From assembly GCA_963745035.1 (NCBI GenBank), contig CAVUVW010000013.1:640001-704000 (forward strand): a DNA stretch of 64,000 bases, read 5' to 3'. Of this stretch, positions 17 through 46,949 are shown one piece after another. The stretch's first letter is position 1; every line of letters begins with the position of its first letter. Made by a program: the position numbers and the translations under genes. Origin of the DNA: an uncultured delta proteobacterium (lineage in GTDB: Bacteria; Desulfobacterota; Binatia; UBA9968). Under the pieces are notes generated by a model. That model had not been told where the DNA came from. It searched no databases and worked only from the letters and a program-made list of their open reading frames with translations.

Positions 17-1958
17 TCAGGCGGCCTTGCGATCGAGCAGTTCGCTGATCTGCTGATCAAGGGCGTCCACCGCCGCGCCATCGATGTACATGCGCCACCA
101 TAGCTCGAGGTTGAGAAGAATCCACAATCGGTAGTTATGGTCCATTGCGCCGCTGCGGTGCTGATCGAGCAATTCGAGCATGTAAGCGCGCTCGAAATAG
201 CCTTCTTCGCACAAGCGCGATTTCATAAACAAAGATTCGAGGACATTGCCGAGCTCCGACTTCATCCAATGGGCGAGCGGGAAGGAAAAACCTTGCTTCG
301 ACCTCGACAGCAACTGGGGCGGCAGATAATCTTTGGCCGCCTCGCGAAAAACATGCTTCAACCGGCCGCCTTTCACTTTCAAGCGCGTCGGCGTCGCCGC
401 GGCAAATTCCACAACACGGTAGTCCAATAGCGGCGAACGATCTTCCAGGCTGTGCGCCATGGTCATATGGTCGACGAGCATCAGCAGATGTTCGGGCATG
501 CGGGTCATCATGTCCGTGTACAGCATCTTGTCGATCAACTCTTCCGCGCAGCTACTGTCGAAGTGCTCGAGAATGTTGGGGACGGAATCGAACGCGCCAT
601 TCAGCTCCCGGCGTAACGAGGAGGTGAATAAACGCTCCTTGGCTTCCTGGGTAAAGCGCAGGTAGGCCATACTGTGCGCGTACCTGTTGCCGCCCGAGGT
701 CAAGGACATGTCGTTCAGCCATCGCAGCTTTTGCGTCGTGCTGTTATAGCCGTAGGAGTCGGGCAGGAGGCGGAGCAACGCCGGGAACACGCGCTGGCGC
801 AGCGCTCGGGGAACAAAACAATAATAGTCGACAAGGCGGTTACCGACGTAGCGATCATAGCCGGCAAATAGTTCGTCTCCGCCGTCGCCGCCCAACACCA
901 CTTTGACGCGCGACTTGGCGAGCTCCGCCGCGAGGAAAACGCCGAAACCAAACGGGTCGGCGATTTCGTCCATGTGCCAGATGAGCTTCGGCAACAGCGA
1001 GACCAAACGATTATCGGCGATCTTCTCATAATGTTTGGTGCCGTACTTCTCGGCGACCAGACGGGCGTACGGCAGCTCGTTGAACGCCTGCCTCCTGAAC
1101 GCCGATCGAAAACGTTTGAATCGGCTGCGAAGCGGAGAGCGCCATCATCGAAGCCACCGTGCTCGAATCGATGCCGCCGCTTAGGAAAGCGCCGACCGGC
1201 ACGTCGCTCACCAAATGGGATTTGACCGCGTCCAGTAGGATCGCTTTGAGCTCCGCGACGATCTCGTCTTCGCTTCCGGCAAGCTTGTTATTGTAAACCG
1301 GCCGCCAATATCGCTGCATCTTGATCTGGCCGTTTTCAACGGTCATCCAGTGAGCCGCGGGCAGTTTGTGGATTCCTTTGAAAAGAGTTTGCGTGCCGGG
1401 CAGGTAGCGTAGTGAGATCAGGTGATTCATGGCGTCCGCGGCCATCTCGGGCTTCACCATGCCGCTTTTGAGCAGCGCCTTGATCTCGGAGGCAAAGCCG
1501 AATACGCCGTCGCGCTGAAAGAAGAAAAGCGGCTTCTGACCGATATGATCGCGCGCGAGAAACAAGCGCTGACGCGACCTGTCCCAGATCGCGAACGCAA
1601 ACATCCCGCGCAGGTGGCGCACGCAGTCGGCGCCGTGCTGCTCGTAGAGATGGACGATGACTTCGGTGTCCGTGGAAGTCTTGAACTTGTGGCCCTGGGC
1701 CTCGAGGTCGCGCCGGAGATCAAGAAAGTTGTAAATCTCGCCGTTAAAAACAATCCAAACCGTTCCGTCTTCGTTCGCGATCGGCTGCCGGCCGTGCTCG
1801 ATGTCAATAATGCTCAGCCGCCGATGCCCCAAGCCGATCGCGCCATCGAAATAATAACCCTCGTCGTCAGGACCGCGGTGCCTGAGCGTATTGCTCATCG
1901 ACCGGATCCGTTGTTCGTCAACCCTGAACGGTTGCCAAAGGCCGCTAATGCCGCACAT
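17..1958 (-). CDS. asnB: Asparagine synthase (glutamine-hydrolysing)-like amidotransferase, EPS-associated; split by a +1 frameshift near 1091
   Basis: N-terminal MCGI, HRGPD, GHRRLSIID, NGEIYN and LSGGIDSS in ORF 1026-1985; GDGGDELFAGY and RSPLLD in ORF 17-1006; removing one G near 1091 gives ...GVQEQAFNELPYARLVAEKYGTKH... joining both. Confidence 0.9.
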
Positions 1959-2132
1959 AACTCCGCCACCCTTGCGATTCAGCAAATCGCTGTGTTTCGA
2001 TAGCCATTGTTGAAAAACTGACTGTGCTTCGCTCGCTCGCCGCTTTTGAGCATTCTTCGGATCACTAACCCATCGCGGCGATCATCGTGCCGCGACGAAC
2101 ATCCAATAGGCGCAACTTAAGAGGCAACAGCG

Positions 2133-3116
2133 TTAGATATAGCCGTGGTTACGATACCACTCTCCCGTTCGGCCGAGTCCGGTCGGCAAGTCGACTTTGG
2201 GCCGGTAGCCAAGCTCTCGTATCGCTTTGTCGATATTGAAAGCGCGAACCTGGCGAAACCAATCCACCCGACGACGAAACAGCGGCGGCGTCATGCGAAA
2301 CGGCTTACAAACAGCTTCACAGAGGAAAGCAGCCGTCCACAACGGCCAGAAAGGCAAGTGACGGATGCGCACGGAAGCCCCCAAGGCTTTGCCGACCTCG
2401 AGCACCAAATCATTGATCGTATAATAATGCTCGTCGCCGATGATGTAGGTTTCCCCGGCTATACCTTCTTTGCTGCCGGCAAGCTCAAAGGCGTCGACCA
2501 GGTTATCAATGTAGACTGGGTGATAATATGTCCGGCCGTCGCCGAACATCAGAAACGATCCGCGTTTTGCCAATCGGAACAAGATCAAAAAGCGCTCCGG
2601 GTCGCCGGGTCCATAGATCGCCGTGGGGCGGATCGTCACCGCGTCGAGACCTTTGGCGACGTATTCCTGTACTACTTTTTCGCCTTCGTATTTGGTCAAC
2701 TGATAGTAGTCCTCGGGTACGATGGGCGATTGCTCACTCCCCGGCGGGGTCTTGATGTGGCCATGTACACCTTGGGTGCTGCAATACACGAACCGGCGTA
2801 CCTTGGCCCGGTGCGCCACGTCCAGCAGATGCCGCGTGCCCTCTACGTTCACGTCCCAGTAGTACCGCTCGGGAACGTTCAGCTGCCGAAACGCCGCGGC
2901 AATGTGGTATACAAGCTCGCAACCCGACATCAGCTTTTCGCTCAGGTGCTTGTCGGTAATGCTGCCCAGCTCGATCTTTGCGCCCAACTGCTTGAGCTCG
3001 TCGTAGAACAGTCCCTTCTGATTATCGACGACCAGAACGTCATGGCCCTTTGTCAGCAGTCGTCTAACCAGGTGGCTTCCGGTAAAACCGGTTCCTCCAG
3101 TAACGAATATTTTCAT
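2133..3116 (-). CDS. NAD-dependent epimerase/dehydratase (extended SDR)
   Basis: VTGGTGFTG Rossmann motif and YQLTK (YxxxK); ATGA overlap with the upstream stop supports the start at 3116. Confidence 0.9.
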   Translation of the reverse strand: MKIFVTGGTGFTGSHLVRRLLTKGHDVLVVDNQKGLFYDELKQLGAKIELGSITDKHLSEKLMSGCELVYHIAAAFRQLNVPERYYWDVNVEGTRHLLDVAHRAKVRRFVYCSTQGVHGHIKTPPGSEQSPIVPEDYYQLTKYEGEKVVQEYVAKGLDAVTIRPTAIYGPGDPERFLILFRLAKRGSFLMFGDGRTYYHPVYIDNLVDAFELAGSKEGIAGETYIIGDEHYYTINDLVLEVGKALGASVRIRHLPFWPLWTAAFLCEAVCKPFRMTPPLFRRRVDWFRQVRAFNIDKAIRELGYRPKVDLPTGLGRTGEWYRNHGYI

Positions 3117-4144
3117 GGTATGATCTTTCGACACTCCGGCAGAAATTCTTTCAGCCAGATCTTCGGCATATTTTTCGTAACTTCGATTTGTCCGAAACGT
3201 TTACTGTGCTTGGCTCCGACCGCGCGAGCCCAGTCCGCCATCTTTACCAAACCCTCTTCCAGCGGAACCTTCGCCGCGTAATCGAAGACGTCGTTGAGGC
3301 GCTCATGGCTCGAGAACGCATGCTTGACCTCGTCTCGCGCATCGAGATACACGACGTTGAGCGCTGTCCCCATGGCGGCCGCGACCTTCTCGGCGAGCTC
3401 GTTGACCGTGTAGGGAACGTCGGCGCCGACGTTGAAGATCTGATTTTGCGCTCTGGGATTGAACGGCGCATCGGCAATGACCGGAACCACGTCGCCCACG
3501 CAGGTAAACGCCCTGCGCTGTTCGCCGTCCCCGAAAATGGTCATCGGCCGCGACTGCATGATCTGGTTCATGAAAATGCCGACCACGTTGCGATACCGAT
3601 CGCCGATGTTCTGCCGCTCGCCGTAAACGTTGTGTGGGCGGAAGATCACATGATTCAACCCGAACATTTTGTGGCTGACTCGCAGCTCCTGTTCGACGGC
3701 CAGCTTCGCCACGCCATAGGGATCTTCCGGCACCGGGGTCATTTCTTCGGTCATGGGCACCTGATTTTGCCCGTACACCGCGATCGACGAGGTAAACACG
3801 AAGCATTTGACGTCGTGGTGAATGGAGGCGTTGATCAGGTTGACACTGCCGATCAGGTTATTCTCGTAATTGAACCTCTTGATGAAATGACTGAGACCTT
3901 CAGCCGCATAGGCGGCCAGGTGAAAAACGTATGCGAACCGGTTGCGCGAAAACAGCGCATTGATCAGGTGATGATCCGTGATGCTGCCGTTGACGAACTG
4001 GGCCCGCCGGTCGATGTTCTCGACAAATCCGCCGCTCAGGTCATCCAGGACCGTGACCGCGTGGCCCTGATCGAGTAGGTGACTTGCTAAATGGGAGCCT
4101 ATGAAACCGGCTCCGCCCGTAACCAAGACTTGCGCCTTCTCCAT
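3113..4144 (-). CDS. NAD-dependent nucleotide-sugar epimerase (GalE-like)
   Basis: VTGGAGFIG, FTSSIAVYG, YGVAK; AAGGAG RBS before ATG 4144. Confidence 0.9.
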   Translation of the reverse strand: MEKAQVLVTGGAGFIGSHLASHLLDQGHAVTVLDDLSGGFVENIDRRAQFVNGSITDHHLINALFSRNRFAYVFHLAAYAAEGLSHFIKRFNYENNLIGSVNLINASIHHDVKCFVFTSSIAVYGQNQVPMTEEMTPVPEDPYGVAKLAVEQELRVSHKMFGLNHVIFRPHNVYGERQNIGDRYRNVVGIFMNQIMQSRPMTIFGDGEQRRAFTCVGDVVPVIADAPFNPRAQNQIFNVGADVPYTVNELAEKVAAAMGTALNVVYLDARDEVKHAFSSHERLNDVFDYAAKVPLEEGLVKMADWARAVGAKHSKRFGQIEVTKNMPKIWLKEFLPECRKIIP

Positions 4145-5379
4145 TTTGTTGCTCCTTTGACAGATTGCGCGGTTGCTTTCGTATGGAATTGTAAATATCG
4201 GCCAGCCGGCGCGCCACTCCCGACCAGGAATGCTCATTGGCGGCTTTTTGCCGGCTCATCTTCGCAAGCTCCGCCGACCGTTCATGATTCGTCAAAACCC
4301 CGATCAGCGCTTCGGCGAGCGACGTGACGTCACCCATCTTTGCGTAGACGCCGACGTGGCCCAATATTTCGCGGTTGATCGGAGTGTCGAAGACGACCGT
4401 CGGCAAACCCATCGCCATGTAGCCGAACAGCTTCAGATTGGCTTCGGTTGTCGAGATTTTCGGTGACACCGCCACGTCGGCGATCGAGAGATATCGGGGC
4501 ACGTCCTCGTAAGAAATTTTTCCGGTAAAATGGGTCCACTTTTCGATTTGCAGGCAGCGCGCCTTCTCGCGATAGTGCTGCTCGTTCGGATATCCGACGA
4601 TGACGAACTTGACGTGCTCGACCTTTTGTACCACCAGAGGAACCGCCTCGAGCAGCAGGTCGATGCCTTGATACTCGGTCAACACGCCGACGAACATCAC
4701 CACTTTACTAGTCATTGTCGCCTCGCATCGTCGCAATGCCCAAAGATGTCCGGAGCTCGATATCCTTTTCGAGCGGGCGGAAAATATCCAGATCGACGCC
4801 GTCCATTACCGAAGTCACGCGTTCGGCGGCAATCCCATAGAGATTCACACAGGCCTGCGCCGTATGGGTCGAGCTAACGATCAGATGCGCGGGCATTTGG
4901 TTGACCATGCGTTCGATCCAGCTCACGAACCTGACGAGCGGCGCGTTATCGGGCAGGAACCGATGAGCAAGCAACTCATCGGTAAGGCTGCCCTGCAAAT
5001 CCGCGACCAAGGGAATGCGAAAGATCACGCTAGCGATTTTGCCGATCACGATTCCTTCATGGAGATGGGCATGGATTATGTCGGGCCGAAAGCTGCGGCA
5101 CGTCCGCAGCACCGTCCACAGCAGCAACAGATCGATATAGAACTTGTGCCACGAAGGACCGGCCGAGAGCTTGCCGTACCATGGAACTCTCATCGTCCGC
5201 GCCGTGGGAATGCCTTCCACATCGCGGCCCAAAAAATACGTGCAAAGGGTCACTTGATGTCCCATCTCGATCAGCGCCTTGGCTTCCCCCAGGATGCGGA
5301 CGTGGCATCCGCGATCCGCGAAAAACGGCGTCGGGGCGATCATCAAAATGCGTTGGCTTCGAACCTCAGATGTTTTCAT
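4041..5379 (-). CDS. GT4 family glycosyltransferase; frameshifted near 4710-4735
   Basis: N-half (APTPFFADRG, IHAHLHEG) in 4708-5379; C-half (VMFVG, QGIDLL, EANLKLFGYMAMGLPTV) in 4041-4736. Confidence 0.8.
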
Positions 5380-7171
5380 GCATCGGTCCCATAAAGTTCC
5401 GTTGAACTTCTTCCAGCTCCGCCGACATCCTTTGCCGGCTCCAACCTAACTCGGCTGCCATGATCTTGGCGCACGACGAAAGCGCGTGATCGCCGGGGTG
5501 CCCGGCGGTTCCCAGATTGGTGCGCCTGAAAACGATATCTGCGAGCTTTTGCGCCATCTCGACGCGCACGCCGTGGAGCACTTCGGCTTTGATGACCGGG
5601 GAGTCGGCCGCGACGCGCTCGAGACATTGTGGCTGGGCATCGCCATGGCGGAGCACTTCACCGTATGCCGCTCCATGGGTCTCGACCAAATGGCGCAAGA
5701 TTTCGGCATCCACCCGAGCGGGCCGCTCCCGCAAGGCTCGGGACAACAATGCCTCGACGTCTTCCCCGGCTCCGCAAAGTGGGATTTCCGAAGTGCTACA
5801 ACGAGGTGCGCGCCTGTCGAGCTTCTTAAAAATCAGATTGACCGTCTGCTCGGCGACTTGCCTGGCAGTCGTGTACTTCACCCCGACGATGGAGACCAAA
5901 CCGTCGATCCCATTATCGATGGCGTGATCACGGATTTCGTGATGTTTTTTGAGCTGGACGTCGCCACCTCGGGCGTCTCCTTCCGCGGGAACCAATCCAC
6001 GAAAGATTGCTACGACGTCTGCGCGCTCCAGCCGCGGCGTCGGAAAAGCTGTATTGATCTCCCGGATCGCCTCGCCGATTTCGGCTTCGCTGACCGTCAG
6101 AGCTTCGGGAGGGCCGTCGTGCGGCCTTTGAAAAGTGCCGACCAGGGACCACTTACGCCAAGGCGTTACGAAGAAATAACGAAATCCCTTCTTGACCATC
6201 GCGTCTGCATCGCTGTACGAGAACCGGCTCGGCACGCCAACCGCGATCTTCCCGGCGATAATCGGACGGGTAACGAGCACCATCGACTTGCACAAAGCCT
6301 GGTTCTGGGTGCTTGCGTACCTGAGCGGTTCGAGCAACTGCGCGGCCCAAGGCCCTGCGCAGTTGACGACCATGCGCGCGCGCACGGTCAAGGCATCGCC
6401 GGTCAACAAGTCCTTAAGATGGACGCCGGTCACGCGCGCACCTTCGCACACAAAGCCGCCGGCCTCGACGTAATTGGCAACCTCGGCGCCAGCGTCTACG
6501 GCCGAGCGCAGCAACGCAAGATTCAATCGGCCCGGATTTTCGACCTGCGCGTCGCAAAACAGCGCCCCTCCCGTTATGTCGGGCTGATCCAGCCCCGAAC
6601 AAATCTCCAGACACTCGGCCCTCGAGATCACCCGGCCGGCCGGGATTTGCTGGCGCGTCGGCAAATCACGGTTGCGGTCCGTGCCCACCCAATCGTTGAG
6701 CTTCAGCGCCGCGGACATCAGCAGTTTTCCCCGCAACAGCCGCTTATAGGTCGGGATGAGAAACGGTAACGGTCGGACCAGATGGGGAGCGATGCGCAAA
6801 AGAATACTGCGCTCGCGAATCGACTCGCGCATGCGCTTAAGATCGCCGTGCTGCAAATAGCGTAGCCCGCCATGAATGATCCGATGATGATTCGACGAGG
6901 TGGCATGGCCAAAATCGCCCCGGTCCACCAAAGCCACCCGAAGTCCTCTGAGAGCCGCGTCCCGCGCCACGCTGATGCCATATATCCCGGCACCGATGAT
7001 CGCGATATCAAAGATCGTATCGGCTAGCGCGGCTGGATTTCTTTTCAAGGCTGCGCTTTGTAAGACCGCATCAGGACGGAGGGTGTCAGGGAAAGCGCTG
7101 GCTACCGGCAGACTCGATGAAGCTCCGCCCATAACGTCCAATAAGGCGTGAGCCGATAAACCGAAGGGCAT
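5366..7171 (-). CDS. glpD: FAD-dependent glycerol-3-phosphate dehydrogenase/oxidase family protein (true start may be TTG 7048)
   Basis: IIGAGIYG, GHATSSNHHRIIHGGLRYLQ, NCAGPW, GVKYTTAR, EMAQKLADIVFRRT. Confidence 0.85.
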   Translation of the reverse strand: MPFGLSAHALLDVMGGASSSLPVASAFPDTLRPDAVLQSAALKRNPAALADTIFDIAIIGAGIYGISVARDAALRGLRVALVDRGDFGHATSSNHHRIIHGGLRYLQHGDLKRMRESIRERSILLRIAPHLVRPLPFLIPTYKRLLRGKLLMSAALKLNDWVGTDRNRDLPTRQQIPAGRVISRAECLEICSGLDQPDITGGALFCDAQVENPGRLNLALLRSAVDAGAEVANYVEAGGFVCEGARVTGVHLKDLLTGDALTVRARMVVNCAGPWAAQLLEPLRYASTQNQALCKSMVLVTRPIIAGKIAVGVPSRFSYSDADAMVKKGFRYFFVTPWRKWSLVGTFQRPHDGPPEALTVSEAEIGEAIREINTAFPTPRLERADVVAIFRGLVPAEGDARGGDVQLKKHHEIRDHAIDNGIDGLVSIVGVKYTTARQVAEQTVNLIFKKLDRRAPRCSTSEIPLCGAGEDVEALLSRALRERPARVDAEILRHLVETHGAAYGEVLRHGDAQPQCLERVAADSPVIKAEVLHGVRVEMAQKLADIVFRRTNLGTAGHPGDHALSSCAKIMAAELGWSRQRMSAELEEVQRNFMGPMHENI

Positions 7172-7261
7172 GTGACTCTGTGCTGCTGTCAGGTCCCCGC
7201 GGACCTGTAAGTCGAACGCGCGGCCAAATCCACGCGAACGACTTCATCAAACAATTTACTG

Positions 7262-7378
7262 TACTGTCGCTTTCGGCGGCCCGGCTGTCGGCAAGCCTTC
7301 GGTTACCTACCGAAGTCCATTTGACCCGTGGCTTTCCGCCCTTCCTTCTCGGGAAGTTCGGCTTTTTCAGGCGAGTAG
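7262..7378 (-). ncRNA. GEMM-I (cyclic di-GMP-I) riboswitch, G20 type
   Basis: Minus strand reads TACTCGC..AAAAGCCGAAC-TTCC-CGAGAA-GGAAG-GGCGGAAAGCCACGGGTC..(CTTCGGT/ACCGAAG hairpin)..GACAGCCGGGCCGCCGAAAGCGACAGTA; P1/P2/P3 pairings and conserved junctions match GEMM-I; position-20 equivalent (7362) is G. Confidence 0.85.
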
Positions 7379-7388
7379 CAAGCCTGAG

Positions 7389-7405
7389 CGCAAGCTCGGT
7401 GCCAA
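7389..7405 (-). promoter_or_regulatory. Sigma-54 -24/-12 promoter for the riboswitch-glpD-GT4-epimerases-asnB operon
   Basis: TTGGCACCGAGCTTGCG (GG-N10-GC), ~12 nt upstream of the riboswitch 5' end. Confidence 0.85.
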
Positions 7406-7639
7406 AGCCAATTGGCTGGAATTAAAGGAATTTTTGACCAGACTTTTGTGGTATTTGCCAGCCTTGGCAGATGCCATCATGACAGTGGCAGCCAGCAGCG
7501 TCAGTCATTTAGTTGTAAGATGGCGAAAATATTGTTGTTTGCGGCCTTGGGATGAAGAACTCAAGGGGAGCGGCGAAACGGGTCGCGGCGCCAAACTTTA
7601 CTTTCAGTTCGCGCTTCTATGGCTAATTTGCCCGGTGCT

Positions 7640-9106
7640 CTACCTGCCCTCCAAACGCAAGATCGTGCTGGCCGTCTTGAGCAGGATGCTCAGCTCGAGC
7701 GCGATGGAGCGATTCTTGATGTAGTACAAGTCGTATTGAAGTTTTTCGAGCGCGTCGCTTTCCGAAGACCCGTAGCCGAAATTGATCTGCGCCCAGCCGG
7801 TGAGTCCCGGCCTGACAATGCTCCGAGCGCCGAAGAACGGCACACGCTCGCTTAACTCCTCGACAAACTCCGGGCGTTCCGGCCGAGGGCCCACGAGCGA
7901 CATTTCACCGGTGAGCACATTCCATAGTTGCGGTAGTTCATCGATTCTGGTTTTGCGCAGCACGCCGCCGACGCGCGTAATCCTGTCGTCGCCCGGCGTC
8001 GCCCAACGAGCGCCGTTGCGCTCCGCATCGGCCACCATCGTGCGAAACTTCACGACGTGAAAGACGCGCCCATCTCTTCCGACCCGCCGTTGCCGAAACA
8101 TCACGGGCCCGGGAGACTCGAGCTTGATCGCGGCCGCGACCAAAGGAAAGCAAAGGAGAGCGGGCATTCCCAGCACCAGCGCCGCGAAAATATCGAGCGT
8201 GCGTTTGGCGATTTCAAAGCCGCGTTTGTTGAATGCTCTGACACTGCCGACGAACCATCCCTCGTTGATCAGCGAGCTCGGTATTTTTCCCGTCACCTCC
8301 TCGTACAAGTGGGTGAAATCGATCACGTGCGCGCCCGAGCACAGCAGCTTGTAGAAAAACACCCGCATCGCTTCATTGTCGCCGACCTGCCGTGTCACCG
8401 CGACAACGTCGATCTCGCGCGCAAGAACGCGCGTTTGAATGAATTCCTGTAGGACCGGCAATTCATCCTCGGCCGGATGTTCCAAAGTAAGTACATGGCA
8501 CACGTTGTAACCAAGATAGCTTTTTTGCTCCAGCAAGCTTTTCAACTCCGCCATTTCACTGCCGCTGCCGCACAGCATGACCCTCATCTTCGGGCCGATT
8601 CTGCCCCATTGCATGAACAACTGGCGGCTGGCAAACAGGAAAAAAGTGAGAAACGTCAGATCGAGAGCCAGCACGATGCGCGGCGGCATTCTGAAGACCT
8701 TGGGGGTGATCCGGAAGTAATTGACCGTATAGAAAATGGTGATTCCTATGACGCCGCAAATCGCGAGCGCCAGTGCGATTCGTTTGATTAGCTCGCGCCG
8801 CGACGTGAACCGCTCGATATCGTATAAGCCAACGCTGTAGAGGACGAAAAGCCAGACCGCATGGAGAATGTTAAAGCCGGTGAAAGTCCGGCTCATGGTA
8901 AAGTATTTCGCCACCGCGTACTCCTCCGGAAGCCATAAATCCCGCAGGAGTAAGGCGAGAAACAGGGCGCAGTTAACCAGGACGAGGTCGCATAGGCACA
9001 AAAGCACCTTCTGCAGCGGAAACGATATGAATACTCGCTGTTTGATCGCCGGCGGTGAAATACCGGATAAATCAAATTTATCCGCGACGGAACTACTCGC
9101 GTCCAT
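7640..9106 (-). CDS. Priming sugar transferase (polyprenyl glycosylphosphotransferase, WcaJ/WbaP family)
   Basis: N-terminal TM helices; KFRTM, RIDELPQLWNVLTGEMSLVGPRPERP, PGLTGWAQ, YDLYYIKN. Confidence 0.95.
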   Translation of the reverse strand: MDASSSVADKFDLSGISPPAIKQRVFISFPLQKVLLCLCDLVLVNCALFLALLLRDLWLPEEYAVAKYFTMSRTFTGFNILHAVWLFVLYSVGLYDIERFTSRRELIKRIALALAICGVIGITIFYTVNYFRITPKVFRMPPRIVLALDLTFLTFFLFASRQLFMQWGRIGPKMRVMLCGSGSEMAELKSLLEQKSYLGYNVCHVLTLEHPAEDELPVLQEFIQTRVLAREIDVVAVTRQVGDNEAMRVFFYKLLCSGAHVIDFTHLYEEVTGKIPSSLINEGWFVGSVRAFNKRGFEIAKRTLDIFAALVLGMPALLCFPLVAAAIKLESPGPVMFRQRRVGRDGRVFHVVKFRTMVADAERNGARWATPGDDRITRVGGVLRKTRIDELPQLWNVLTGEMSLVGPRPERPEFVEELSERVPFFGARSIVRPGLTGWAQINFGYGSSESDALEKLQYDLYYIKNRSIALELSILLKTASTILRLEGR

Positions 9107-9163
9107 GGATGCCTCCTGAAAATCTGCTCGAGCGAATTGCCGTCATACAATGCGCGGCGTCGG

Positions 9164-10315
9164 TCAACTTCCCCGCGCCACCGACCAGGTCGCGCCCTGA
9201 CGCCCGGTAAGCCAGGCGACGAAACCCCAGGCGACGGCGGCATTGCCGACAAGAAAATGCAGGGCGAAGGAAAACAATGGTCGCGGTTTGCCCAACCAGT
9301 AAAGCGCCGCACCCGTGCCCGCCGCTAACAAGAAGAGCCCGATGGCAAAACGCAGAAATGCAAACACGCCGCCATCCAAGAGAAACGGAACTGCCAGGAG
9401 ATTCAGCACCAGAAACGGGCTCACCCAGCGCAATACTTTCTTGGACGCAAACTGAAAAAGAACAAAGGGTCGCACGGGATCGAGCAAGCAACCGAGCCAG
9501 CGGGCCATGCCGTGGAACGTCCGCGCGCTGATCCTCGAGTGGCGCGCAAACTCGATGCCTACCTTCGCCGATGCCGGTTCAAGACATATCGCCGCCGGCT
9601 CGTAGAGGACTTCGTGACCTTTGCGCAGCACCTGGAGCGGGATCTCGAGATCGACCGGGGTCATCGGGTCCATGGGCTCAAAAAATTCCTTGCGAAAAGC
9701 AAAATTCCCGCCATAGGCGCCAATAACCGACCCGAGCGCGCTTTCCGCTTTTTTTACCCAGGAGTCATAGCGCATGTACAAACCTTCGCCCTGGTGCGCG
9801 GCGCCGTCCTTTGCATCGAAGTAGCGGACGACTCCAGAAACACACCCGACACGCGGGCGGGCGAAGTGACGCACGAGTTTTTTGATCGCGCTTGCGTCCA
9901 GGATTCCGTTGGCGTCGGTGAACAGCAAAATATCTCCTCGCGCTTGGGGACAGGCGGCGTTGAGCGCGGCGGTCTTTCCCGCTCTGTTCCGCCGCGCCAT
10001 GAAAGTCACGCCGCGGTTGCGGTATTCGCCGACGATGCTATCGGTCCGGTCGGTGGAGGCGTCCGAGACGACAAAAATCTCCAACCGGTCTTTGGGGTAG
10101 TCAAGCCCAAGCAGGTTCTCAATTCTTCCTCTAATGACTGCATCTTCATTGTGCGCAGCCAATACGACGGAGACCGTGGGCCACACATCCGGCGCCTCCG
10201 AATGCGGCGCAGTCTTGCGCCACCGAGCAAGCAAGACGAGCACGAGTGGATACCCGACGTAGGTGTAAAACAGCAAAGACAAGGAGCCCCAGAAAAAAAT
10301 CTCAGCCATGATCAA
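9164..10315 (-). CDS. GT2 family glycosyltransferase, membrane anchored
   Basis: VSVVLAAHNE, VSDASTD, GKTAALN, FTDAN; TM segments at both ends. Confidence 0.9.
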   Translation of the reverse strand: MIMAEIFFWGSLSLLFYTYVGYPLVLVLLARWRKTAPHSEAPDVWPTVSVVLAAHNEDAVIRGRIENLLGLDYPKDRLEIFVVSDASTDRTDSIVGEYRNRGVTFMARRNRAGKTAALNAACPQARGDILLFTDANGILDASAIKKLVRHFARPRVGCVSGVVRYFDAKDGAAHQGEGLYMRYDSWVKKAESALGSVIGAYGGNFAFRKEFFEPMDPMTPVDLEIPLQVLRKGHEVLYEPAAICLEPASAKVGIEFARHSRISARTFHGMARWLGCLLDPVRPFVLFQFASKKVLRWVSPFLVLNLLAVPFLLDGGVFAFLRFAIGLFLLAAGTGAALYWLGKPRPLFSFALHFLVGNAAVAWGFVAWLTGRQGATWSVARGS

Positions 10316-10623
10316 GCAACCTCGTCGATCGTTGCGCGATTGTTTTTGCTTCTGAGTAAAGTGCAGTTACAAATTCGCGCATGACAGAACTTTCACTGCC
10401 GCCAATGGAAAAAATGGTCTTTAATCGCCTTTACGAGACAATTTGTTTTGAAGAGTGTCAGAAAAGCATACAGATTTCGTGCAGTGAAGAGCGGGACTGA
10501 ACACATTTTCATTCGCTCTTCAAAATCATTGCGCGCTCCTGCACAAATCACTTGTCATAAAAGCCGTGCATTTTTTAAACGTTAGCTGCGCGATGGCGAA
10601 AACAACCAACAAGCTTGCGAAAA

Positions 10624-10639
10624 TGGCATATGCCTTGCT
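10624..10639 (+). promoter_or_regulatory. Sigma-54 -24/-12 promoter for the secreted-protein cassette
   Basis: TGGCATATGCCTTGCT (GG-N10-GC); nearly identical to the site at 39044. Confidence 0.85.
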
Positions 10640-10676
10640 GCATGAGCAGCGCAAATCACAATTAGAAGACAGCTCA

Positions 10677-10781
10677 CTGTGAGCCTGTTAAGAGCAAACC
10701 GCGCGAAAGCGCGGGACGCAAAGCCACTGGCCTGACTCTCCGTACGTTGAGAAAGGTCGCAGGGCTACCTGGCGAGCACAG
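10677..10781 (+). ncRNA. GEMM-I riboswitch, A20 variant (predicted 3',3'-cGAMP-capable)
   Basis: AAGAGCAAA-CCGCGC-GAAA-GCGCGG-GACGCAAAGCCACTGGCCTGAC-TCTC..GAGA-AAGGTCGCAGGGCTACC; GAAA tetraloop P2, P3 pairings, P1 CTGTG/CACAG; the base before GCAAACC (10693, Vc2 position 20) is A. Confidence 0.9.
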
Positions 10782-10836
10782 CACCTTCCGGGGGTCTGTG
10801 ATTCGCTTTTAGACGGAATCGCACACACTTGGGAGG

Positions 10837-12390
10837 GTGCCGATGACTTTGTTGAGCTACGCATTCAAGCGTCTGGTATTTTTCACATCATCGATTGTTT
10901 TCATAGGTTTCCTGCACGCGACGGCCGACGCCGCCTCGATTAGGCTGCTGTGGGCGGATCTATCGAGCAACGAAGACGGGTTCAGGATCGAACGCAAGCC
11001 GTCCGGCGGCAACTATGCGACGCTCGCCACCGTGGGCGCGAACGTGCAATCGTACACGGACGCCAACGCGACCGCGGGCGTGAGTTACTGTTACGTCGTA
11101 CGCTCATTTAATACCGGCGGGGTATCCGCTCCTTCAAATAGCGCGTGCGGCACGGCGCCGGCTTCCACGTCCGGCGACCCAGTCGCCAGCGGCTCGGGCT
11201 CCACGGACGGAACCGGCAGCACGGACGGTTCCAGTACCGGCGGTTCCAGCGCGCCGACAATTGCAGTTGGATCGTATAGCGGCAGCAAATGGAAAGATTA
11301 CAGCGTCAGTCTGACGATGAAATCCGCGGACAACGATTCGATCGGAGTCATGTTCCGTTACCTCGACAACGACAATTACTACCGGTTCTCGTGGCATAAC
11401 GAAACAAAAACGCAGCAGCTCGTAAAGCGCGAGAACGGCGCCTTCAAGGTTCTGGCGAAACGCACGGCGACTTACACCTCAGGAAGAAGCTATTCCCTGG
11501 CGATCAGCGCAAACGGTTCGCAGCTCAAGGTCGCGGTCGACGGCGCGACGATCTTCACCGTTACGGACACGAGCTTCGCCGACGGTACGATCGGCTTATA
11601 CTCCTCTTCCAATCAAGGCAGCTCTTTTGATAACGTCAAGGTCATCGATTTGAGCACGGAGAAAACTTTGCTCACCGAAGATTTCAGCGACGGAAACTTC
11701 GTCGGCTGGAGTATCATCGACGACCCGGCAGCAAAGAACGGCCCATCCCTTTGGTCCGTCTCCAGCGGAGTCTTGCTTCAGAAGAGCAATATCGGTTCCG
11801 GAACCAGCGACGCCCTCGGCACCTACGCCTTATTTACCCGAGGCAGTTGGACGGACTATCGCTTCAGCGTAAAGATAAAATCGACCGACAATGATTCTAT
11901 TGGCGTCATGTTTCGCTACCAGGACGATCGCAACTACTATCGATTCGTTTGGGATCCCCAGGAAAAATCCCGGCGCCTGGAAAAGCGCGTAAACGGCGTT
12001 TTCACTTCCATTGCTCACGACACAGTCCCTTACGTCACCGGCCAGACGTATCAGATCGAGATCGGCGCGAACAAAGCCGCATTACAGGTTCTGGTCAACG
12101 GCGCTTCGGTCTTCGCGGTCAACGATTCCACTTTCAGCGGAGGCACGGTCGCCCTGTACTCCAGGTTCAACAGCACAAGCATCTTCGATGACGTCATGGT
12201 TCAGGATCTATTAACGAAGACGGTCTTGCTATGGGATGATTTCAATGACGGAAATCTTCACGCCTGGACGATCATTGATGACGATGGCACCCGATCCGGC
12301 CCTTCCGAATGGTCGGTGTCCAACGGCGCGCTGGTGGAAACCAGCAACATCGGCTCCGATAGTCAACTAGGCACTTTCGCAGTATACTAG
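10837..12390 (+). CDS. Secreted protein: signal peptide, fibronectin type III domain, Gly/Ser/Thr linker, two repeated beta-sandwich (ConA/DUF1080-like) domains
   Basis: GGGAGG RBS plus GTG; ADA-A cleavage site; Fn3 pattern LLWADLSSNEDGFRIER..YCYVVRSFN; duplicated WxDY..DNDSIGVMFRYxDxxNYYRF. Confidence 0.8.
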   Translation: MPMTLLSYAFKRLVFFTSSIVFIGFLHATADAASIRLLWADLSSNEDGFRIERKPSGGNYATLATVGANVQSYTDANATAGVSYCYVVRSFNTGGVSAPSNSACGTAPASTSGDPVASGSGSTDGTGSTDGSSTGGSSAPTIAVGSYSGSKWKDYSVSLTMKSADNDSIGVMFRYLDNDNYYRFSWHNETKTQQLVKRENGAFKVLAKRTATYTSGRSYSLAISANGSQLKVAVDGATIFTVTDTSFADGTIGLYSSSNQGSSFDNVKVIDLSTEKTLLTEDFSDGNFVGWSIIDDPAAKNGPSLWSVSSGVLLQKSNIGSGTSDALGTYALFTRGSWTDYRFSVKIKSTDNDSIGVMFRYQDDRNYYRFVWDPQEKSRRLEKRVNGVFTSIAHDTVPYVTGQTYQIEIGANKAALQVLVNGASVFAVNDSTFSGGTVALYSRFNSTSIFDDVMVQDLLTKTVLLWDDFNDGNLHAWTIIDDDGTRSGPSEWSVSNGALVETSNIGSDSQLGTFAVY

Positions 12391-12435: not shown

Positions 12436-13740
12436 ATGAACCCTCAGTTAAAAATGGCCGTCATGTCCGGCGCGCTTTTCCTTGGCTTCCTTATTGCCGA
12501 CTCAAGCATCGCGGCAACCTACCATGTGAAAAAGTCCGGCAACGATTCCTATAGTTGCACCCAGGCGCAAAGCGCCTCGACACCCAAGCTGACAATTAGT
12601 TCCGCTCTTAACTGCATCGGTACAGGAGCAGGTGCAGGCGCAAACCATACTGTTCGGGTCTACGCCGGCACCTACGCCGAAACCATCAACAACAACTTGC
12701 CCGGCGGCACTTCATGGAACGATCCATTCACACTTGAGAGTAATCCCGGTGATGTTGTCAGCATACGACCGTCCGGATCTTGTATCATAACTATCGACCT
12801 TCGCCGATCAACGACTCAGTATGCAATTATTCAAGGCCATGGTGACGCTAAAATGGTAGTAGACGCCACGAACTGCAGTAATAACGCTATAAAGATCACT
12901 AAGTCTACTTCACACGGAACAGCGCATCACGTTCGGCTTAAAGAGTTGGAGGTTAGGAATGCGCCTAATCACGGTATTCAAATAACATCTGATTCTGCTT
13001 TTAATGAACAGATCAACTTGTGGGTGCACCATAACGGCTCTTCGGCAAACGTTGACGATACCCACGGAACTTACGTTGGCGGGCCGGACAATCTGATCGA
13101 AGGCGGACTTTACGAGTACAACTACCATAGAGGTATTCAGATCCGAGCGGGTACTAAAACTGCGCACCGCAATATCATCCGCCGAACAATTATTAGAAAT
13201 AATGGCAGAGCTCCCGGAGGGGGAGGAAACGTCGTACTCGCCGCGGGCGATGACATCCAGTTTTATAACAATATCGTTTATGGAGCTACCATTCACGGAG
13301 TGTCTGTTACCTGTTCAGGTGGTTGTCCTTCCCGAACAAAAATCTACAACAATACAATCTTTAAGAATGGGCAATATGCGATCAACTTACACGGTGTGAG
13401 CCAAACTGAGATCAAAAATAATATCTTTTGGCAAAATGGATCAGATACGGTCGCCCTCGGGCCCAGTATTGGCACAACGCAATCGAATAATTTAACCTCA
13501 GACCCAAAATTTGCCGATGTGACCAAGTATAATTTTCGCTTGGTGTCAGGCAGCCCAGCTATCGACAAAGGAGCGACCATTTCGGCAGTTAAAAACGACT
13601 TTGATGGCCGGCCGCGGCCACAAGGAGCAAGTTTTGATATTGGAGCTTTCGAATTTAATGCGACCTCGGGTGGTAGCCAGCCAATTCCGTCAGCGACTCC
13701 GCCGGCGGCTCCCGGTCAGTTAACGACAGTGACTCAGTGA
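12436..13740 (+). CDS. Secreted right-handed parallel beta-helix (pectin lyase-fold) protein with choice-of-anchor-Q-like C-terminus
   Basis: Signal peptide; ATYHV..GND; Asn-ladder repeats (FYNNIVY, IYNNTIF, IKNNIFW); SPAIDKG..DFDGRPRPQGASFDIGAFE. Confidence 0.85.
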   Translation: MNPQLKMAVMSGALFLGFLIADSSIAATYHVKKSGNDSYSCTQAQSASTPKLTISSALNCIGTGAGAGANHTVRVYAGTYAETINNNLPGGTSWNDPFTLESNPGDVVSIRPSGSCIITIDLRRSTTQYAIIQGHGDAKMVVDATNCSNNAIKITKSTSHGTAHHVRLKELEVRNAPNHGIQITSDSAFNEQINLWVHHNGSSANVDDTHGTYVGGPDNLIEGGLYEYNYHRGIQIRAGTKTAHRNIIRRTIIRNNGRAPGGGGNVVLAAGDDIQFYNNIVYGATIHGVSVTCSGGCPSRTKIYNNTIFKNGQYAINLHGVSQTEIKNNIFWQNGSDTVALGPSIGTTQSNNLTSDPKFADVTKYNFRLVSGSPAIDKGATISAVKNDFDGRPRPQGASFDIGAFEFNATSGGSQPIPSATPPAAPGQLTTVTQ

Positions 13741-37216: not shown

Positions 37217-37243
37217 AGATTAACGAAGCCTCACGTGCGCGTA

Positions 37244-39043: not shown

Positions 39044-39059
39044 TGGCATATAGCTTGCT
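39044..39059 (+). promoter_or_regulatory. Sigma-54 promoter for the prsK-like/prsR-like/dehydrogenase operon
   Basis: TGGCATATAGCTTGCT (GG-N10-GC), 33 nt before ATG 39093. Confidence 0.85.
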
Positions 39060-39092
39060 CTGTCAGGAAGAATTTCTTTTCATGAACGGGGA

Positions 39093-40382
39093 ATGGATTC
39101 AGTTTCTAATTTGAACAAGCTGCTCATGGCAAACCCAAGCGCGCCCAGATGGCTACCTTTGCGTGAGGCGACACGCATCATGCGACGATTCGTCAAGCAG
39201 CGTTTTGTCCACCGTAAAAAATACGACTACAACGACTTGTGGATGAAATTCTCCGACCAGTCGAGCGGCTCGCTCCACATCCAGGACTTGCTGCCTCGAG
39301 TCGCCGAGTTCATCGCCGCAGCCATGTCAGTGCGTCAGGTCGCTTTTTGGCTTCACTCAACGCCAGAGAGCTATCGCCTGGTTTATTCCCGCAGCCCTGC
39401 ATCCAGCGCCGCAACCGCCACGCTTCGCTTGGCTCATTCTCGCACCAACGATTCGACTCTCTTTCACGTATCGCGGGACGGCTTTCGGCCCGACGCGAAA
39501 GATTGGTCCGCTGAAAGCTTGCAAACCGTGCGCGCTTTGAACATACAACGCTTGGTTCTCGTCGAGAACCGCGGCGAGGTGTTGGCGCTGATGGGCATCG
39601 GCGCGCCCGGACAAGCAGTTTTATTGCCCGAAGACGATCAGTTCTTATTGAGGGTCAGCGATCAGCTCGGCCACCTCATTCTGACTCACAAGCTTTCCGA
39701 AGAGCTGCTCCTCTCGCGCGAATGGGAGTCGTTCAACCGTTTTGCTTCTTTCATACTTCACGATCTCAAGAACCTTGCCACGCTGCAAAGCATGACATTG
39801 GAAAACGCCAAGTATCTCAGTCATGACGCCGCATTTATCAAGGATGCCTTCGCCACTTTCAGCGAGACCACTGAGAAGATGATCAATCTGATCGCCAGCC
39901 TTTCTGTTCAACGGGGCCATTTTTCGCTCAAGCAACAGCCGCTCAATATCCTCGAAGTTCTCACCCATACGTTCGACGATCTCAAAGTGGACCAGAGAAA
40001 CGGCGTGAAAGTTTTGACGGCCTTCCCTCCAAAGGACCGACTACCCATCGTTTCAGGCGACCCCGAGCTGCTGCAAAAGGCTTTTACCAATTTGCTCCTG
40101 AACGCGATCCAAAGCCTGCCCAAAGGCAAGGGCGCCGTGGAGATCACGGTCGCGCAAGAGGCCGCCGGAAAAATCACCACGTCGATTCGCGACAGCGGAT
40201 GCGGCATCGCTCCCGAGCGGCTGGAAACTCTCTTTCGGCCATTTCAAACGACCAAGGAAAACGGCCTCGGAATCGGTCTTTGCCATACCCGTTCGATTAT
40301 TGAAGTTCACGGCGGCCGGATCCGCATTGAAAGTCAGTTAAATGCCGGCACTAAAGTCGAGGTTGAGCTACCGGCGTTGTAG
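39093..40382 (+). CDS. PrsK-like (PEP-CTERM system) GAF histidine kinase lacking the N-terminal membrane domain
   Basis: KYDYNDLWMKF and ESFNRFASFILHDLKN resemble PrsK signatures; NAIQS, DSGCGI, PFQTTK, GLGIGL. Confidence 0.8.
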   Translation: MDSVSNLNKLLMANPSAPRWLPLREATRIMRRFVKQRFVHRKKYDYNDLWMKFSDQSSGSLHIQDLLPRVAEFIAAAMSVRQVAFWLHSTPESYRLVYSRSPASSAATATLRLAHSRTNDSTLFHVSRDGFRPDAKDWSAESLQTVRALNIQRLVLVENRGEVLALMGIGAPGQAVLLPEDDQFLLRVSDQLGHLILTHKLSEELLLSREWESFNRFASFILHDLKNLATLQSMTLENAKYLSHDAAFIKDAFATFSETTEKMINLIASLSVQRGHFSLKQQPLNILEVLTHTFDDLKVDQRNGVKVLTAFPPKDRLPIVSGDPELLQKAFTNLLLNAIQSLPKGKGAVEITVAQEAAGKITTSIRDSGCGIAPERLETLFRPFQTTKENGLGIGLCHTRSIIEVHGGRIRIESQLNAGTKVEVELPAL

Positions 40383-40401
40383 ATCGGGGAGGAAGGCAAC
40401 T

Positions 40402-41805
<1,404 letters not shown>

Positions 41806-43348: not shown

Positions 43349-46949
<3,601 letters not shown>

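What the first reader, a model, noticed from the sequence alone, without database searches (positions are those of the whole stretch)
7262..10781. Two GEMM-I riboswitches with different predicted ligands (G20 vs A20) in one EPS locus
Seen: two GEMM-I aptamers 3.3 kb apart on opposite strands, each just downstream of a sigma-54 promoter. The one at 7262-7378 (-) has G at the Vc2 position-20 equivalent and leads glpD-GT4-epimerases-asnB. The one at 10677-10781 (+) has A there and leads two secreted carbohydrate-interacting proteins. Known: G20 specifies c-di-GMP; A20 variants in Geobacter bind 3',3'-cGAMP. Inference: polymer synthesis/tailoring and extracellular matrix proteins of the same locus may respond to two different second messengers, a dual cyclic-dinucleotide matrix switch.
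Basis: partly seen in the sequence, partly recalled or inferred. Interest (0 to 1): 0.88.

Follow-up and report, generated by a model that had tools for sequence, protein, structure and literature searches.

The report
Two GEMM-I riboswitches, one A20 variant
Two genuine cyclic-dinucleotide riboswitches face away from each other in a sugar-polymer gene cluster of an uncultured soil bacterium; one carries a real base change known to loosen ligand choice, but no enzyme for a second messenger was found, so a two-signal switch is unproven.

Summary
Rfam models hit both aptamers above threshold: 10683-10772(+) and 7271-7371(-). Position 10693 is A and its counterpart 7362 is G. Each aptamer lies downstream of a sigma-54-type -24/-12 element.

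The A is not an assembly error. Contigs from four runs of four different studies carry it.

The two-messenger reading is weakly supported:
- This is the only A20 among the 33 GEMM-I aptamers I read in the genus sample (31 G, 1 unalignable).
- Both orthologous operons found in other species have G20.
- Its nearest relatives are G20 aptamers, not the A20 aptamers of Hypr-GGDEF genomes.
- All five intact GGDEF domains of the genome have the canonical Asp, and no SMODS or DncV-like cyclase was found. The same test did find a Ser-type GGDEF in 3 of 3 other A20-bearing genomes.
- Published work shows that A20 alone gives bispecific binding.

Most likely both switches sense c-di-GMP, the A20 one more weakly. 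One caveat: some near-complete relatives have GEMM-I but no good GGDEF, so absence of a synthase is a fallible argument.

The parts
7390..7404 (-). sigma-54-type -24/-12 element, TGGCAC-N5-TTGC, about 18 nt upstream of the - aptamer
   Evidence: Read. The same element (TTGGCACCGAGCTTGCG) sits at the orthologous place in L015. The genome has one rpoN and about 27 enhancer-binding proteins.
7271..7371 (-). GEMM-I aptamer with G20 (7362), A47 and C92 equivalents. The first P1a pair is flipped (C-G instead of G-C) and P1b carries a long insertion.
   Evidence: RF03167 60.8 bits and RF01051 52.9 bits. The ortholog in L015 scores 72.2 bits. The one contig whose differences I could fully account for across 7271-7358 (X8, one run) shows none there.
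7049..7270 (-). long leader (about 220 nt) between the - aptamer and the probable start of the GlpD-like gene; several hairpins, no intrinsic terminator found
   Evidence: In L015 the upstream ATG is out of frame with the gene, so the start is more likely TTG 7048 than ATG 7171.
5366..7171 (-). GlpD-like FAD-dependent oxidoreductase (DAO + DAO_C), the longest ORF; the real start is probably TTG at 7048
   Evidence: Pfam. NCBIfam hits to glycerol-3-phosphate dehydrogenase lie below the equivalog cut-off (239.7 against 360).
4041..5379 (-). GT4 glycosyltransferase, split into two overlapping ORFs (4708-5379 N domain, 4041-4736 C domain)
   Evidence: The split is probably an assembly indel, because secA is split in the same way in this window.
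2133..4237 (-). two NAD-dependent sugar epimerase/dehydratase genes (3113-4237, 2133-3134)
17..1985 (-). asparagine-synthase-type amidotransferase, best match to the XrtA/PEP-CTERM system amidotransferase model, split into two ORFs (1026-1985, 17-1006)
   Evidence: TIGR03108: 349.8 and 188.1 bits for the two halves; cut-off 816.9 for a whole protein.
7640..10315 (-). two genes between the divergent leaders: a priming polyprenyl glycosylphosphotransferase (7640-9106) and a GT2 (9164-10315)
   Evidence: TIGR03025 357.1 bits, over its cut-off of 295.55. The same two genes (488 and 381 aa) lie between the aptamers in L015.
10624..10639 (+). sigma-54-type -24/-12 element, TGGCAT-N5-TTGCT, 44 nt upstream of the + aptamer
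   Evidence: Conserved in L015 (TGGCATATGGCTTGCT).
10683..10772 (+). GEMM-I aptamer with A at the G20 equivalent (10693). A47 and C92 equivalents, the GAAA tetraloop and the C44/G83 equivalents are kept. The tetraloop-receptor motif is altered (CCUGAC / AAGG instead of CCUAAG / UACGG).
   Evidence: RF01051 67.8 bits. Alignment with its clade. A at 10693 in spanning contigs of four runs from four studies.
10781..10840 (+). hairpin that pairs the anti-SD (10785-10789, CCUUC) with the Shine-Dalgarno GGAGG (10832-10836); the start codon is ATG at 10843
   Evidence: Pair probabilities 0.99. An equivalent hairpin with a different anti-SD sequence occurs in L015 and G014, so 3 of 3 orthologous leaders have one.
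10837..12390 (+). P0001: N-terminal hydrophobic leader, Fn3-like module, two DUF1080/3-keto-disaccharide-hydrolase (LamG-like) domains and the start of a third
   Evidence: 54% identical to the homolog in L015.
12436..13740 (+). P0002: N-terminal hydrophobic leader, right-handed beta-helix, choice-of-anchor Q domain
   Evidence: A similar gene follows the P0001-like gene in G014.
39044..41805 (+). candidate activator of the locus's sigma-54 promoters: sigma-54 motif (39044-39059), PrsK-like histidine kinase (39093-40382) and a PrsR-type enhancer-binding response regulator (40342-41805)
   Evidence: TIGR02915 539.7 bits, over its cut-off of 502.6. The link to the two riboswitch promoters is an inference.

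Best explanation
Both elements are working GEMM-I (c-di-GMP-I class) riboswitches. They lie in the 5' leaders of two divergent sigma-54-dependent transcription units of an exopolysaccharide locus. Transcription needs sigma-54 plus an enhancer-binding protein, probably the PrsR-type regulator 30 kb away (inferred). The leader RNA then adds a second-messenger check. The - aptamer has the canonical c-di-GMP pocket (G20, A47, C92). The + aptamer is a species-specific G-to-A derivative of a c-di-GMP aptamer, and it has also lost the canonical tetraloop receptor. By analogy with Vc2 G20A, it should still bind c-di-GMP, but orders of magnitude more weakly, and would also accept 3',3'-cGAMP if any were present. 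The genome and its genus show only canonical diguanylate cyclases. The ligand in the cell is therefore most likely c-di-GMP for both, and the practical difference is sensitivity: one messenger, two thresholds. The + switch most likely acts on translation through a conserved hairpin that masks the Shine-Dalgarno sequence. Shown here: the aptamers, the A, the promoter motifs, the hairpin, their conservation and the synthase content. Inferred: the ligand, the affinity shift, the activator, and whether control is on or off.
For: - Covariance-model hits for both aptamers.
- A at 10693 in four independent assemblies.
- The divergent pair, both sigma-54 motifs and both flanking gene sets recur in the public record L015, where the + aptamer has G20 and a canonical receptor.
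- A second ortholog (G014) also has G20.
- Of 33 aptamers read out of 37 match rows in 41 genomes, 31 have G, 1 is unalignable and 1 has A.
- The + aptamer is 72-80% identical to the genus's G20 aptamers, and 59-68% to the A20 aptamers of Hypr-bearing genomes.
- 0 of 5 intact GGDEF domains carry Ser at the Hypr position, and there is no SMODS or DncV-like domain.
- 16 GGDEF domains from four 98-99%-complete genomes of the genus: 15 Asp, 1 Asn, 0 Ser/Thr.
- Positive control: a Ser-type GGDEF in 3 of 3 A20-bearing genomes elsewhere in the phylum.
- Literature: Vc2 G20A binds c-di-GMP at 53 nM against picomolar for wild type, and cGAMP at 120 nM (PMC6140456, passages).
- An SD-masking hairpin in 3 of 3 orthologous leaders, with different anti-SD sequences.
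Against: - No ligand was tested.
- The synthase argument is fallible. The genome is 92.6% complete. In the same genus, G014 (99% complete, 4 GEMM-I), G007 (98%), G021 (95%) and G002 (84%) have GEMM-I aptamers but no GGDEF domain at E<=1e-30. G014's only hit is degenerate, and these four have no SMODS either.
- In Geobacter a single A/G change at this position does switch selectivity (Gm0970 A20G; PMC6456294), so A20 can mean cGAMP.
- The A is fixed in four sampled populations, which also fits a selected new specificity.
- In the minimum-energy folds the aptamer and the SD-masking hairpin coexist. I found no conserved alternative pairing that would couple ligand binding to SD release.
Confidence: 0.55

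Rival explanations
1. The + aptamer is a cGAMP-selective (GEMM-Ib-like) riboswitch and the - aptamer a c-di-GMP riboswitch, so polymer synthesis and the secreted proteins answer to two different messengers.
For: A at the G20 equivalent with C92 kept. The A is real and fixed in four populations. A20/G20 flips selectivity in Gm0970 (PMC6456294). Many Geobacter A20 aptamers are highly cGAMP-selective (PMC8835794 and PMC6456294, passages). Genomes of this genus can lack any detectable synthase and still keep riboswitches, so an unrecognised synthase is conceivable.
Against: No Hypr-type GGDEF, SMODS or DncV-like domain in the genome, nor a Ser/Thr GGDEF among the 16 domains of four near-complete genomes of the genus. 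The orthologs have G20. It is the only A20 of 33 aptamers read. It descends from the local G20 clade, not from the A20 aptamers that co-occur with Ser-type GGDEFs. A20 alone gives bispecific binding.
Confidence: 0.2
2. The + aptamer is decaying. Loss of G20 and of the tetraloop receptor has crippled ligand sensing, and the leader now acts constitutively, with regulation left to sigma-54 and the SD hairpin.
For: It is the most divergent member of its clade: 74-80% identity to the others, against 76-94% among them. The changes cluster in the ligand contact (position 20) and a tertiary contact (receptor CCUAAG/UACGG changed to CCUGAC/AAGG). It has the lowest Rfam score of the three orthologs: 67.8 against 72.6 and 77.9 bits.
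Against: All helices, the GAAA loop, and the A47, C92 and C44/G83 equivalents are intact, and it still scores 33 bits over the family threshold. There is no further difference in the aptamer among four populations, which do differ nearby at 10341-10556. GEMM-I aptamers without a receptor exist, for example the three.
Confidence: 0.15
3. The A at 10693 is a sequencing or assembly error in an error-prone MAG.
For: The assembly has many split genes, including secA, GT4, the amidotransferase and a GGDEF gene in three frames.
Against: Spanning contigs of four runs from four studies have no difference at 10693. Every difference those contigs carry is accounted for at 10341-10556, and no indel is listed inside either aptamer.
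Confidence: 0.01

Closest known systems
c-di-GMP-I (GEMM-I) riboswitch, e.g. Vibrio cholerae Vc2 (Rfam RF01051)
   Same: Both aptamers match the covariance model over its full length, with the P1a/P1b architecture, a GNRA loop, and A47, C92 and C44/G83 equivalents. The - aptamer also has G20.
   Different: The + aptamer has A20 and an altered tetraloop receptor. The - aptamer has its first P1a pair flipped to C-G, GGC instead of GAC in the bulge, and a roughly 30-nt insertion in P1b. Both are driven by sigma-54-type promoters. No intrinsic terminator was found after either aptamer.
GEMM-Ib 3',3'-cGAMP riboswitches of Geobacter (Gs1761, Gm0970)
   Same: A at the position-20 equivalent and C at the position-92 equivalent in the + aptamer.
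   Different: No Hypr GGDEF in the genome. A20 is not conserved in the orthologs. The aptamer belongs to a G20 clade and differs in P1b from the A20 aptamers that co-occur with Ser-type GGDEFs (short P1b, GCAA/GUAA loops). It controls secreted carbohydrate-binding-type proteins rather than cytochromes or pili. Selectivity was not measured.
Vc2 G20A mutant and the natural bispecific A20 aptamer Cbe 1-2
   Same: A c-di-GMP-type scaffold with a single G-to-A change at position 20. This is the best analogue for a recent G20A derivative of a c-di-GMP aptamer.
   Different: Those were characterised in vitro: Kd 53 nM for c-di-GMP and 120 nM for cGAMP with Vc2 G20A (PMC6140456). This one is uncharacterised and has also lost the canonical receptor.
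Rfam RF03167 c-di-GMP-I-GGC variant
   Same: The - aptamer (60.8 bits) and its paralog on contig C1 (59.9 bits) score just above this family's cut-off of 59.
   Different: The model's consensus has G at the first junction base after P1a (GACGC-GA-AgCc), whereas the window has A (GGCGG-AA-AGCC). By recollection of Weinberg et al. 2017, which I could not read, that G is what the name refers to. The match is therefore by overall shape, not by the diagnostic base.

Membership tests
c-di-GMP-I riboswitch aptamer (RF01051) | Covariance-model score above the curated gathering score (35 bits) over the full model | tested here: met
   + aptamer 67.8 bits, model positions 1-87 of 87. - aptamer 52.9 bits, positions 1-87 of 87.
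c-di-GMP-I riboswitch aptamer (RF01051) | Ligand-contact bases G20, A47 and C92 (Vc2 numbering) | tested here: inconclusive
   The - aptamer has all three (G 7362). The + aptamer has the A47 and C92 equivalents but A at position 20 (10693). The mapping of Vc2 numbers onto the model columns rests on the consensus lines and on passages of PMC5888326.
c-di-GMP-I riboswitch aptamer (RF01051) | Selective binding of c-di-GMP | not testable with these tools
   Needs in-line probing or ITC.
GEMM-Ib cGAMP riboswitch | A at the position-20 equivalent with C at position 92 | tested here: met
   + aptamer. The A is confirmed in four independent assemblies.
GEMM-Ib cGAMP riboswitch | Co-occurrence with a cGAMP synthase (Hypr GGDEF with Ser at the Asp position 24 residues before GG(D/E)EF, or a DncV/CD-NTase) | tested here: not met
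   0 of 5 intact and 0 of 8 total GGDEF domains have Ser/Thr. No PF18144 match. No PF21654 match, but that search had no positive control. The residue test found a Ser-type GGDEF in 3 of 3 A20-bearing control genomes. Genome completeness is 92.6%.
GEMM-Ib cGAMP riboswitch | A20 conserved among orthologous leaders | tested here: not met
   G in L015 and in G014: 2 of 2 orthologous operons found.
GEMM-Ib cGAMP riboswitch | Selectivity for 3',3'-cGAMP over c-di-GMP | not testable with these tools
   The literature shows that A20 alone does not predict it.
c-di-GMP-I-GGC variant (RF03167) | Score above the gathering score (59 bits) | tested here: met
   - aptamer 60.8 bits, a margin of 1.8 bits. 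+ aptamer 56.2 bits, below the cut-off.
c-di-GMP-I-GGC variant (RF03167) | G in place of the junction A (A47 equivalent), as in the model consensus | tested here: not met
   The window has AA at the junction where the consensus has GA. The meaning of the family name is recalled, not read.
sigma-54-dependent promoter | -24 GG and -12 GC elements (TGGCAC-N5-TTGC) at the correct spacing, upstream of the transcript | tested here: met
   Conserved in L015. rpoN and about 27 enhancer-binding proteins are in the genome, two of them in the window.
sigma-54-dependent promoter | RpoN- and EBP-dependent transcription start | not testable with these tools
   The single read-laying run was used on DNA contigs. 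Contigs cannot show transcript starts.

The most novel reading that the evidence does not exclude
The A20 aptamer really senses 3',3'-cGAMP (or another mixed cyclic dinucleotide) made by a synthase of an unrecognised kind. The lineage has few or no GGDEF cyclases yet keeps up to seven GEMM-I riboswitches, all wired to sigma-54 promoters. That would place a new cyclic-dinucleotide source, and a true two-messenger matrix switch, in an uncultured Binatia-like soil lineage.
Probability: 0.12. Interest if true: 0.8.

Novelty: new member of a known kind. Interest (0 to 1): 0.35.

Why it matters

What the evidence supports is more modest. A natural, population-fixed G20A derivative of a c-di-GMP riboswitch sits in a genome with only canonical cyclases. 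It is a handy natural test of whether such variants serve to lower sensitivity rather than to change messenger.

The side observations may be of more general interest:
- GEMM-I riboswitches are coupled to sigma-54 promoters across the genus, which amounts to two-layer control.
- Some near-complete genomes keep GEMM-I riboswitches with no detectable dinucleotide cyclase.

Tried and rejected
**Sequencing error at 10693.** Rejected.

**Filing the - aptamer as a true c-di-GMP-I-GGC variant.** Rejected, because the consensus G after P1a is A here.

**Intrinsic terminators.** The scan found none on the right strand between either aptamer and its gene. The only hit inside an aptamer is the antisense of the P1a hairpin.

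**An anti-sequestor pairing.** I looked by eye and by partition-function folding for a conserved pairing that would link ligand binding to release of the Shine-Dalgarno sequence in the + leader. I found none shared by the window, L015 and G014, so the sign of regulation is left open.

**XrtA/PEP-CTERM labelling.** Several genes hit XrtA-associated NCBIfam models, and the PrsR model is passed. However, no exosortase domain (PF09721) was found in the genome, and the priming transferase is below the XrtA-specific cut-off. I therefore call it an EPS locus with a PrsR-type regulator, not an exosortase system.

**DncV-like search (PF21654).** It found nothing, but nothing rang in the control genomes either, so it carries little weight.

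**Phylum pattern scan.** The A20 pattern occurred in 4 of 401 genomes. I did not run the matching G20 pattern, so no A:G ratio is claimed.

**Literature on sigma-54 plus GEMM.** One full-text search gave two papers holding both words. Both were false matches (Gemmatimonas; an author's first name). From this single search I know of no paper on the coupling.

**Papers not held.** Kellenberger 2015, Nelson 2015 and Weinberg 2017. What I say of them is recalled or taken from passages in later papers. Their supplements, and those of Hallberg 2016, list A20 aptamers and predicted Hypr GGDEFs and could bear on whether this lineage was already catalogued. I saw none of them.

**Unknown protein family.** The Pfam and Atlas look-ups for the roughly 225-aa protein behind the flipped-type aptamers gave nothing.

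**RNA evidence.** None was obtained. The one read-laying run was used on DNA contigs.

Full report
**1. What is there**

At Rfam's curated thresholds the 64 kb window holds exactly two RNA-family matches, both GEMM-I aptamers.
- One lies at 10683-10772(+): RF01051, 67.8 bits against a cut-off of 35.
- The other lies at 7271-7371(-). It scores best with the sister model RF03167 (c-di-GMP-I-GGC, 60.8 against 59) and also passes RF01051 at 52.9 bits.

In the model alignments, the unpaired base just before the first P1a pair (the Vc2 G20 equivalent) is A at 10693 in the + aptamer and G at 7362 in the - aptamer. Both keep the junction A (A47) and the 3' C (C92).

The GGC label should not be taken at face value. 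The GGC consensus has G at the first junction base after P1a, and the window has A there.

**2. Is the A real?**

This assembly is a 7.43 Mb MAG of 28 contigs, 92.6% complete with 5.8% contamination. It has many split genes: secA, GT4, the amidotransferase and a GGDEF gene in three frames. An error was therefore a serious possibility.

The stretch is held by public runs of several studies. I laid Logan contigs of four runs from four studies on 7000-11200. The contigs that span 10693 were:

| Run | Span | Differences from the window |
|---|---|---|
| X2 | 9525-11200 | 6 |
| X5 | 10113-11012 | 1 |
| X8 | 9948-10733 | 0 |
| X12 | 9951-10748 | 5 |

Every one of these differences is listed at 10341-10556. 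No indel is listed inside either aptamer. So A20 and the altered receptor are real, and they are fixed in four sampled populations.

**3. Anatomy**

*Promoters.* Each aptamer follows a sigma-54-type -24/-12 element: TGGCAC-N5-TTGC at 7404-7390(-) and TGGCAT-N5-TTGC at 10624-10638(+). The stricter pattern occurs 3 times in the window against 0.17 expected. Both elements are conserved at the orthologous places of L015. The genome has one rpoN and about 27 enhancer-binding proteins. Two of these are in the window, one passing the PrsR equivalog model.

*Genes.*
- Between the divergent leaders lie a priming glycosylphosphotransferase and a GT2.
- The - leader is followed by a GlpD-like oxidoreductase, GT4, two epimerases and an amidotransferase.
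- The + leader is followed by an Fn3 + DUF1080 protein and a beta-helix protein.
- Further on are Wzy, Wzc-like, Wza-like, wecB and rml genes. This is an EPS locus.

*Expression platforms.* No intrinsic terminator was found after either aptamer. After the + aptamer, a hairpin pairs an anti-SD with the Shine-Dalgarno sequence at probability 0.99. Equivalent hairpins with different anti-SD sequences occur in L015 and G014, which points to translational control. I could not find the alternative pairing that would set its sign.

The - leader is about 220 nt long. In L015 the upstream ATG is out of frame, so the gene probably starts at TTG 7048.

**4. Comparison**

*Own genome and genus.* The genome has 7 GEMM-I aptamers: 6 with G20 and this one with A20. 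In 41 genomes (40 relatives plus the window's own) there were 37 match rows. I could read 33 of them; the other four had no locus. Of those 33, 31 have G, one (L114) cannot be aligned at that place, and one, the window's, has A.

*Orthologs.* The closest named public record, L015 (a MAG labelled Candidatus Binatia bacterium; P0001 homolog 54% identical), has the same layout: - aptamer, 488-aa transferase, 381-aa GT2, + aptamer, P0001 homolog. There the + aptamer has G20 and a canonical CCUAAG/UACGG receptor. A second ortholog, in G014, is 80% identical in the aptamer and precedes P0001-like and beta-helix genes. It also has G20.

*Divergence.* The window's aptamer is the most divergent of its clade: 74-80% identity to the others, against 76-94% among them. 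The changes fall at position 20, in the receptor, and in the base before C92.

*Other A20 aptamers.* A pattern scan of 401 genomes of the phylum found three other genomes with an A20-type aptamer. These aptamers have short P1b stems and GCAA/GUAA loops, and are only 59-68% identical to the window's. A20 here therefore arose independently, within a G20 lineage.

**5. Is there a second messenger to sense?**

The signature of Hypr GGDEF cGAMP synthases is Ser in place of the Asp that reads the base. This residue lies 9 residues after the conserved Asn and 24 before GG(D/E)EF in GacA numbering (PMC6456294, passages).
- *This genome.* The 10 GGDEF matches make 8 domains. All 5 intact ones have Asp at that place and 3 are degenerate. 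No SMODS domain was found. No DncV-like domain was found either, but that search had no positive control.
- *Positive control.* I read 53 of the 60 GGDEF matches in the three other A20-bearing genomes, dropping 7 partial rows. Each genome has one Ser-type domain: two with GGDEF and one with GGDEY.
- *Genus.* Four genomes that are 98-99% complete gave 16 domains: 15 Asp, 1 Asn, no Ser or Thr.

**6. What the literature allows**

- Vc2 G20A binds c-di-GMP at 53 nM (wild type is picomolar) and cGAMP at 120 nM.
- Natural A20 aptamers range from selective (Gs1761, Gm0970) to bispecific (Cbe 1-2), and the measured selectivity depends on the P1 context (PMC6140456, passages).
- Gm0970 is about 1600-fold selective, and A20G flips it (PMC8835794; PMC6456294).

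A20 is therefore necessary but not sufficient for calling a cGAMP riboswitch.

**7. Verdict**

| Reading | Confidence |
|---|---|
| Both switches report c-di-GMP; the + switch is a recently derived, weaker and potentially bispecific sensor (one messenger, two thresholds) | 0.55 |
| The + aptamer is decaying | about 0.15 |
| Sequencing error | excluded |

**8. Weakness of my own argument**

At E<=1e-30 the GGDEF counts in the genus range from 0 to 9. Four genomes with GEMM-I aptamers have none: G014 (99% complete), G007 (98%), G021 (95%) and G002 (84%). G014's only hit is degenerate, and none of the four has SMODS. Either these MAGs miss genes, or riboswitches persist without a known synthase. 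In both cases "no synthase found" is not proof.

**9. Side observations**

- All 7 aptamers of the genome, and 16 of 26 in relatives, have a strict sigma-54 motif within 150 nt upstream. The background is 17 of 994 windows, a count that includes the upstream windows themselves.
- 13 of 20 standard-type aptamers precede proteins that share P0001's N-terminal Fn3-like module.
- 13 of 33 aptamers belong to a subclass with a flipped P1a pair. About ten of these precede a roughly 225-aa protein with no Pfam or Atlas match.

Noticed in passing
G000, all 7 GEMM-I loci (L001-L007); relatives L094-L119: GEMM-I aptamers are systematically preceded by a sigma-54 -24/-12 element (TGGYAY-N5-TTGC) 30-75 nt upstream. 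It is present at 7 of 7 in this genome and 16 of 26 in relatives, against 17 of 994 background 150-nt windows. One literature search found no description of such coupling.
   Followed up: partly
G014, G007, G021, G002 (whole genomes): These four genomes of the genus have GEMM-I aptamers (4, 1, 1 and 1) but no GGDEF domain at E<=1e-30, and no SMODS. G014 is 99% complete and its only GGDEF-like hit is degenerate. These are riboswitches without a detectable cyclic-dinucleotide synthase.
   Followed up: partly
L007:1625-2314 (G000:C1) and L102, L103, L105-L108, L113, L117, L119: The flipped-P1a subclass of GEMM-I (13 of 33 aptamers) mostly precedes a conserved protein of about 215-233 aa (motif LRxLGQxLEKxxFSxFDLEL). 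It has no Pfam family and no Atlas hit. The window's - aptamer and its L015/G005 ortholog instead precede the GlpD-like gene.
   Followed up: partly
L001, L002, L094, L095, L098, L100, L109, L110, L115, L116, L118: 13 of 20 standard-type aptamers in the sample (including the window's and its ortholog) precede proteins whose first roughly 100 residues resemble P0001's leader plus Fn3-like module, at 39-59% identity for the non-orthologous ones. This suggests a GEMM-I regulon of secreted Fn3-headed proteins. The same module is widespread in other phyla.
   Followed up: no
window 43349-46949(-); 4041-5379(-); 17-1985(-); G000:C23:8257-8724: secA, GT4, the amidotransferase and a GGDEF gene are each broken into overlapping or adjacent ORFs in different frames. 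A split essential gene points to indel errors in the assembly rather than pseudogenes. Read laying lists one such place at 7552, where two runs lack a base.
   Followed up: partly
window 39044-41805(+) and 35834-38380(-): There are two histidine-kinase / sigma-54 enhancer-binding response-regulator pairs in the EPS locus. One regulator passes the PrsR (PEP-CTERM-box) equivalog model, yet no exosortase domain was found in the genome. Further sigma-54 motifs lie at 18464-18479(-) and 39044-39059(+).
   Followed up: partly
G000:C12:11681-11773 and C12:74681-74774: Two near-identical GEMM-I copies with near-identical upstream regions lie 63 kb apart on one contig. The second differs by small indels (AA-CC, an extra A in GGGaACGC) that may be assembly errors or a diverging duplicate.
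   Followed up: no
L143 (G187), L183 (G329), L201 (G006): These GGDEF domains have Asn, neither Asp nor Ser, at the base-reading position, with an intact GGDEF/GGEEF motif. Their product specificity is unknown to me.
   Followed up: no
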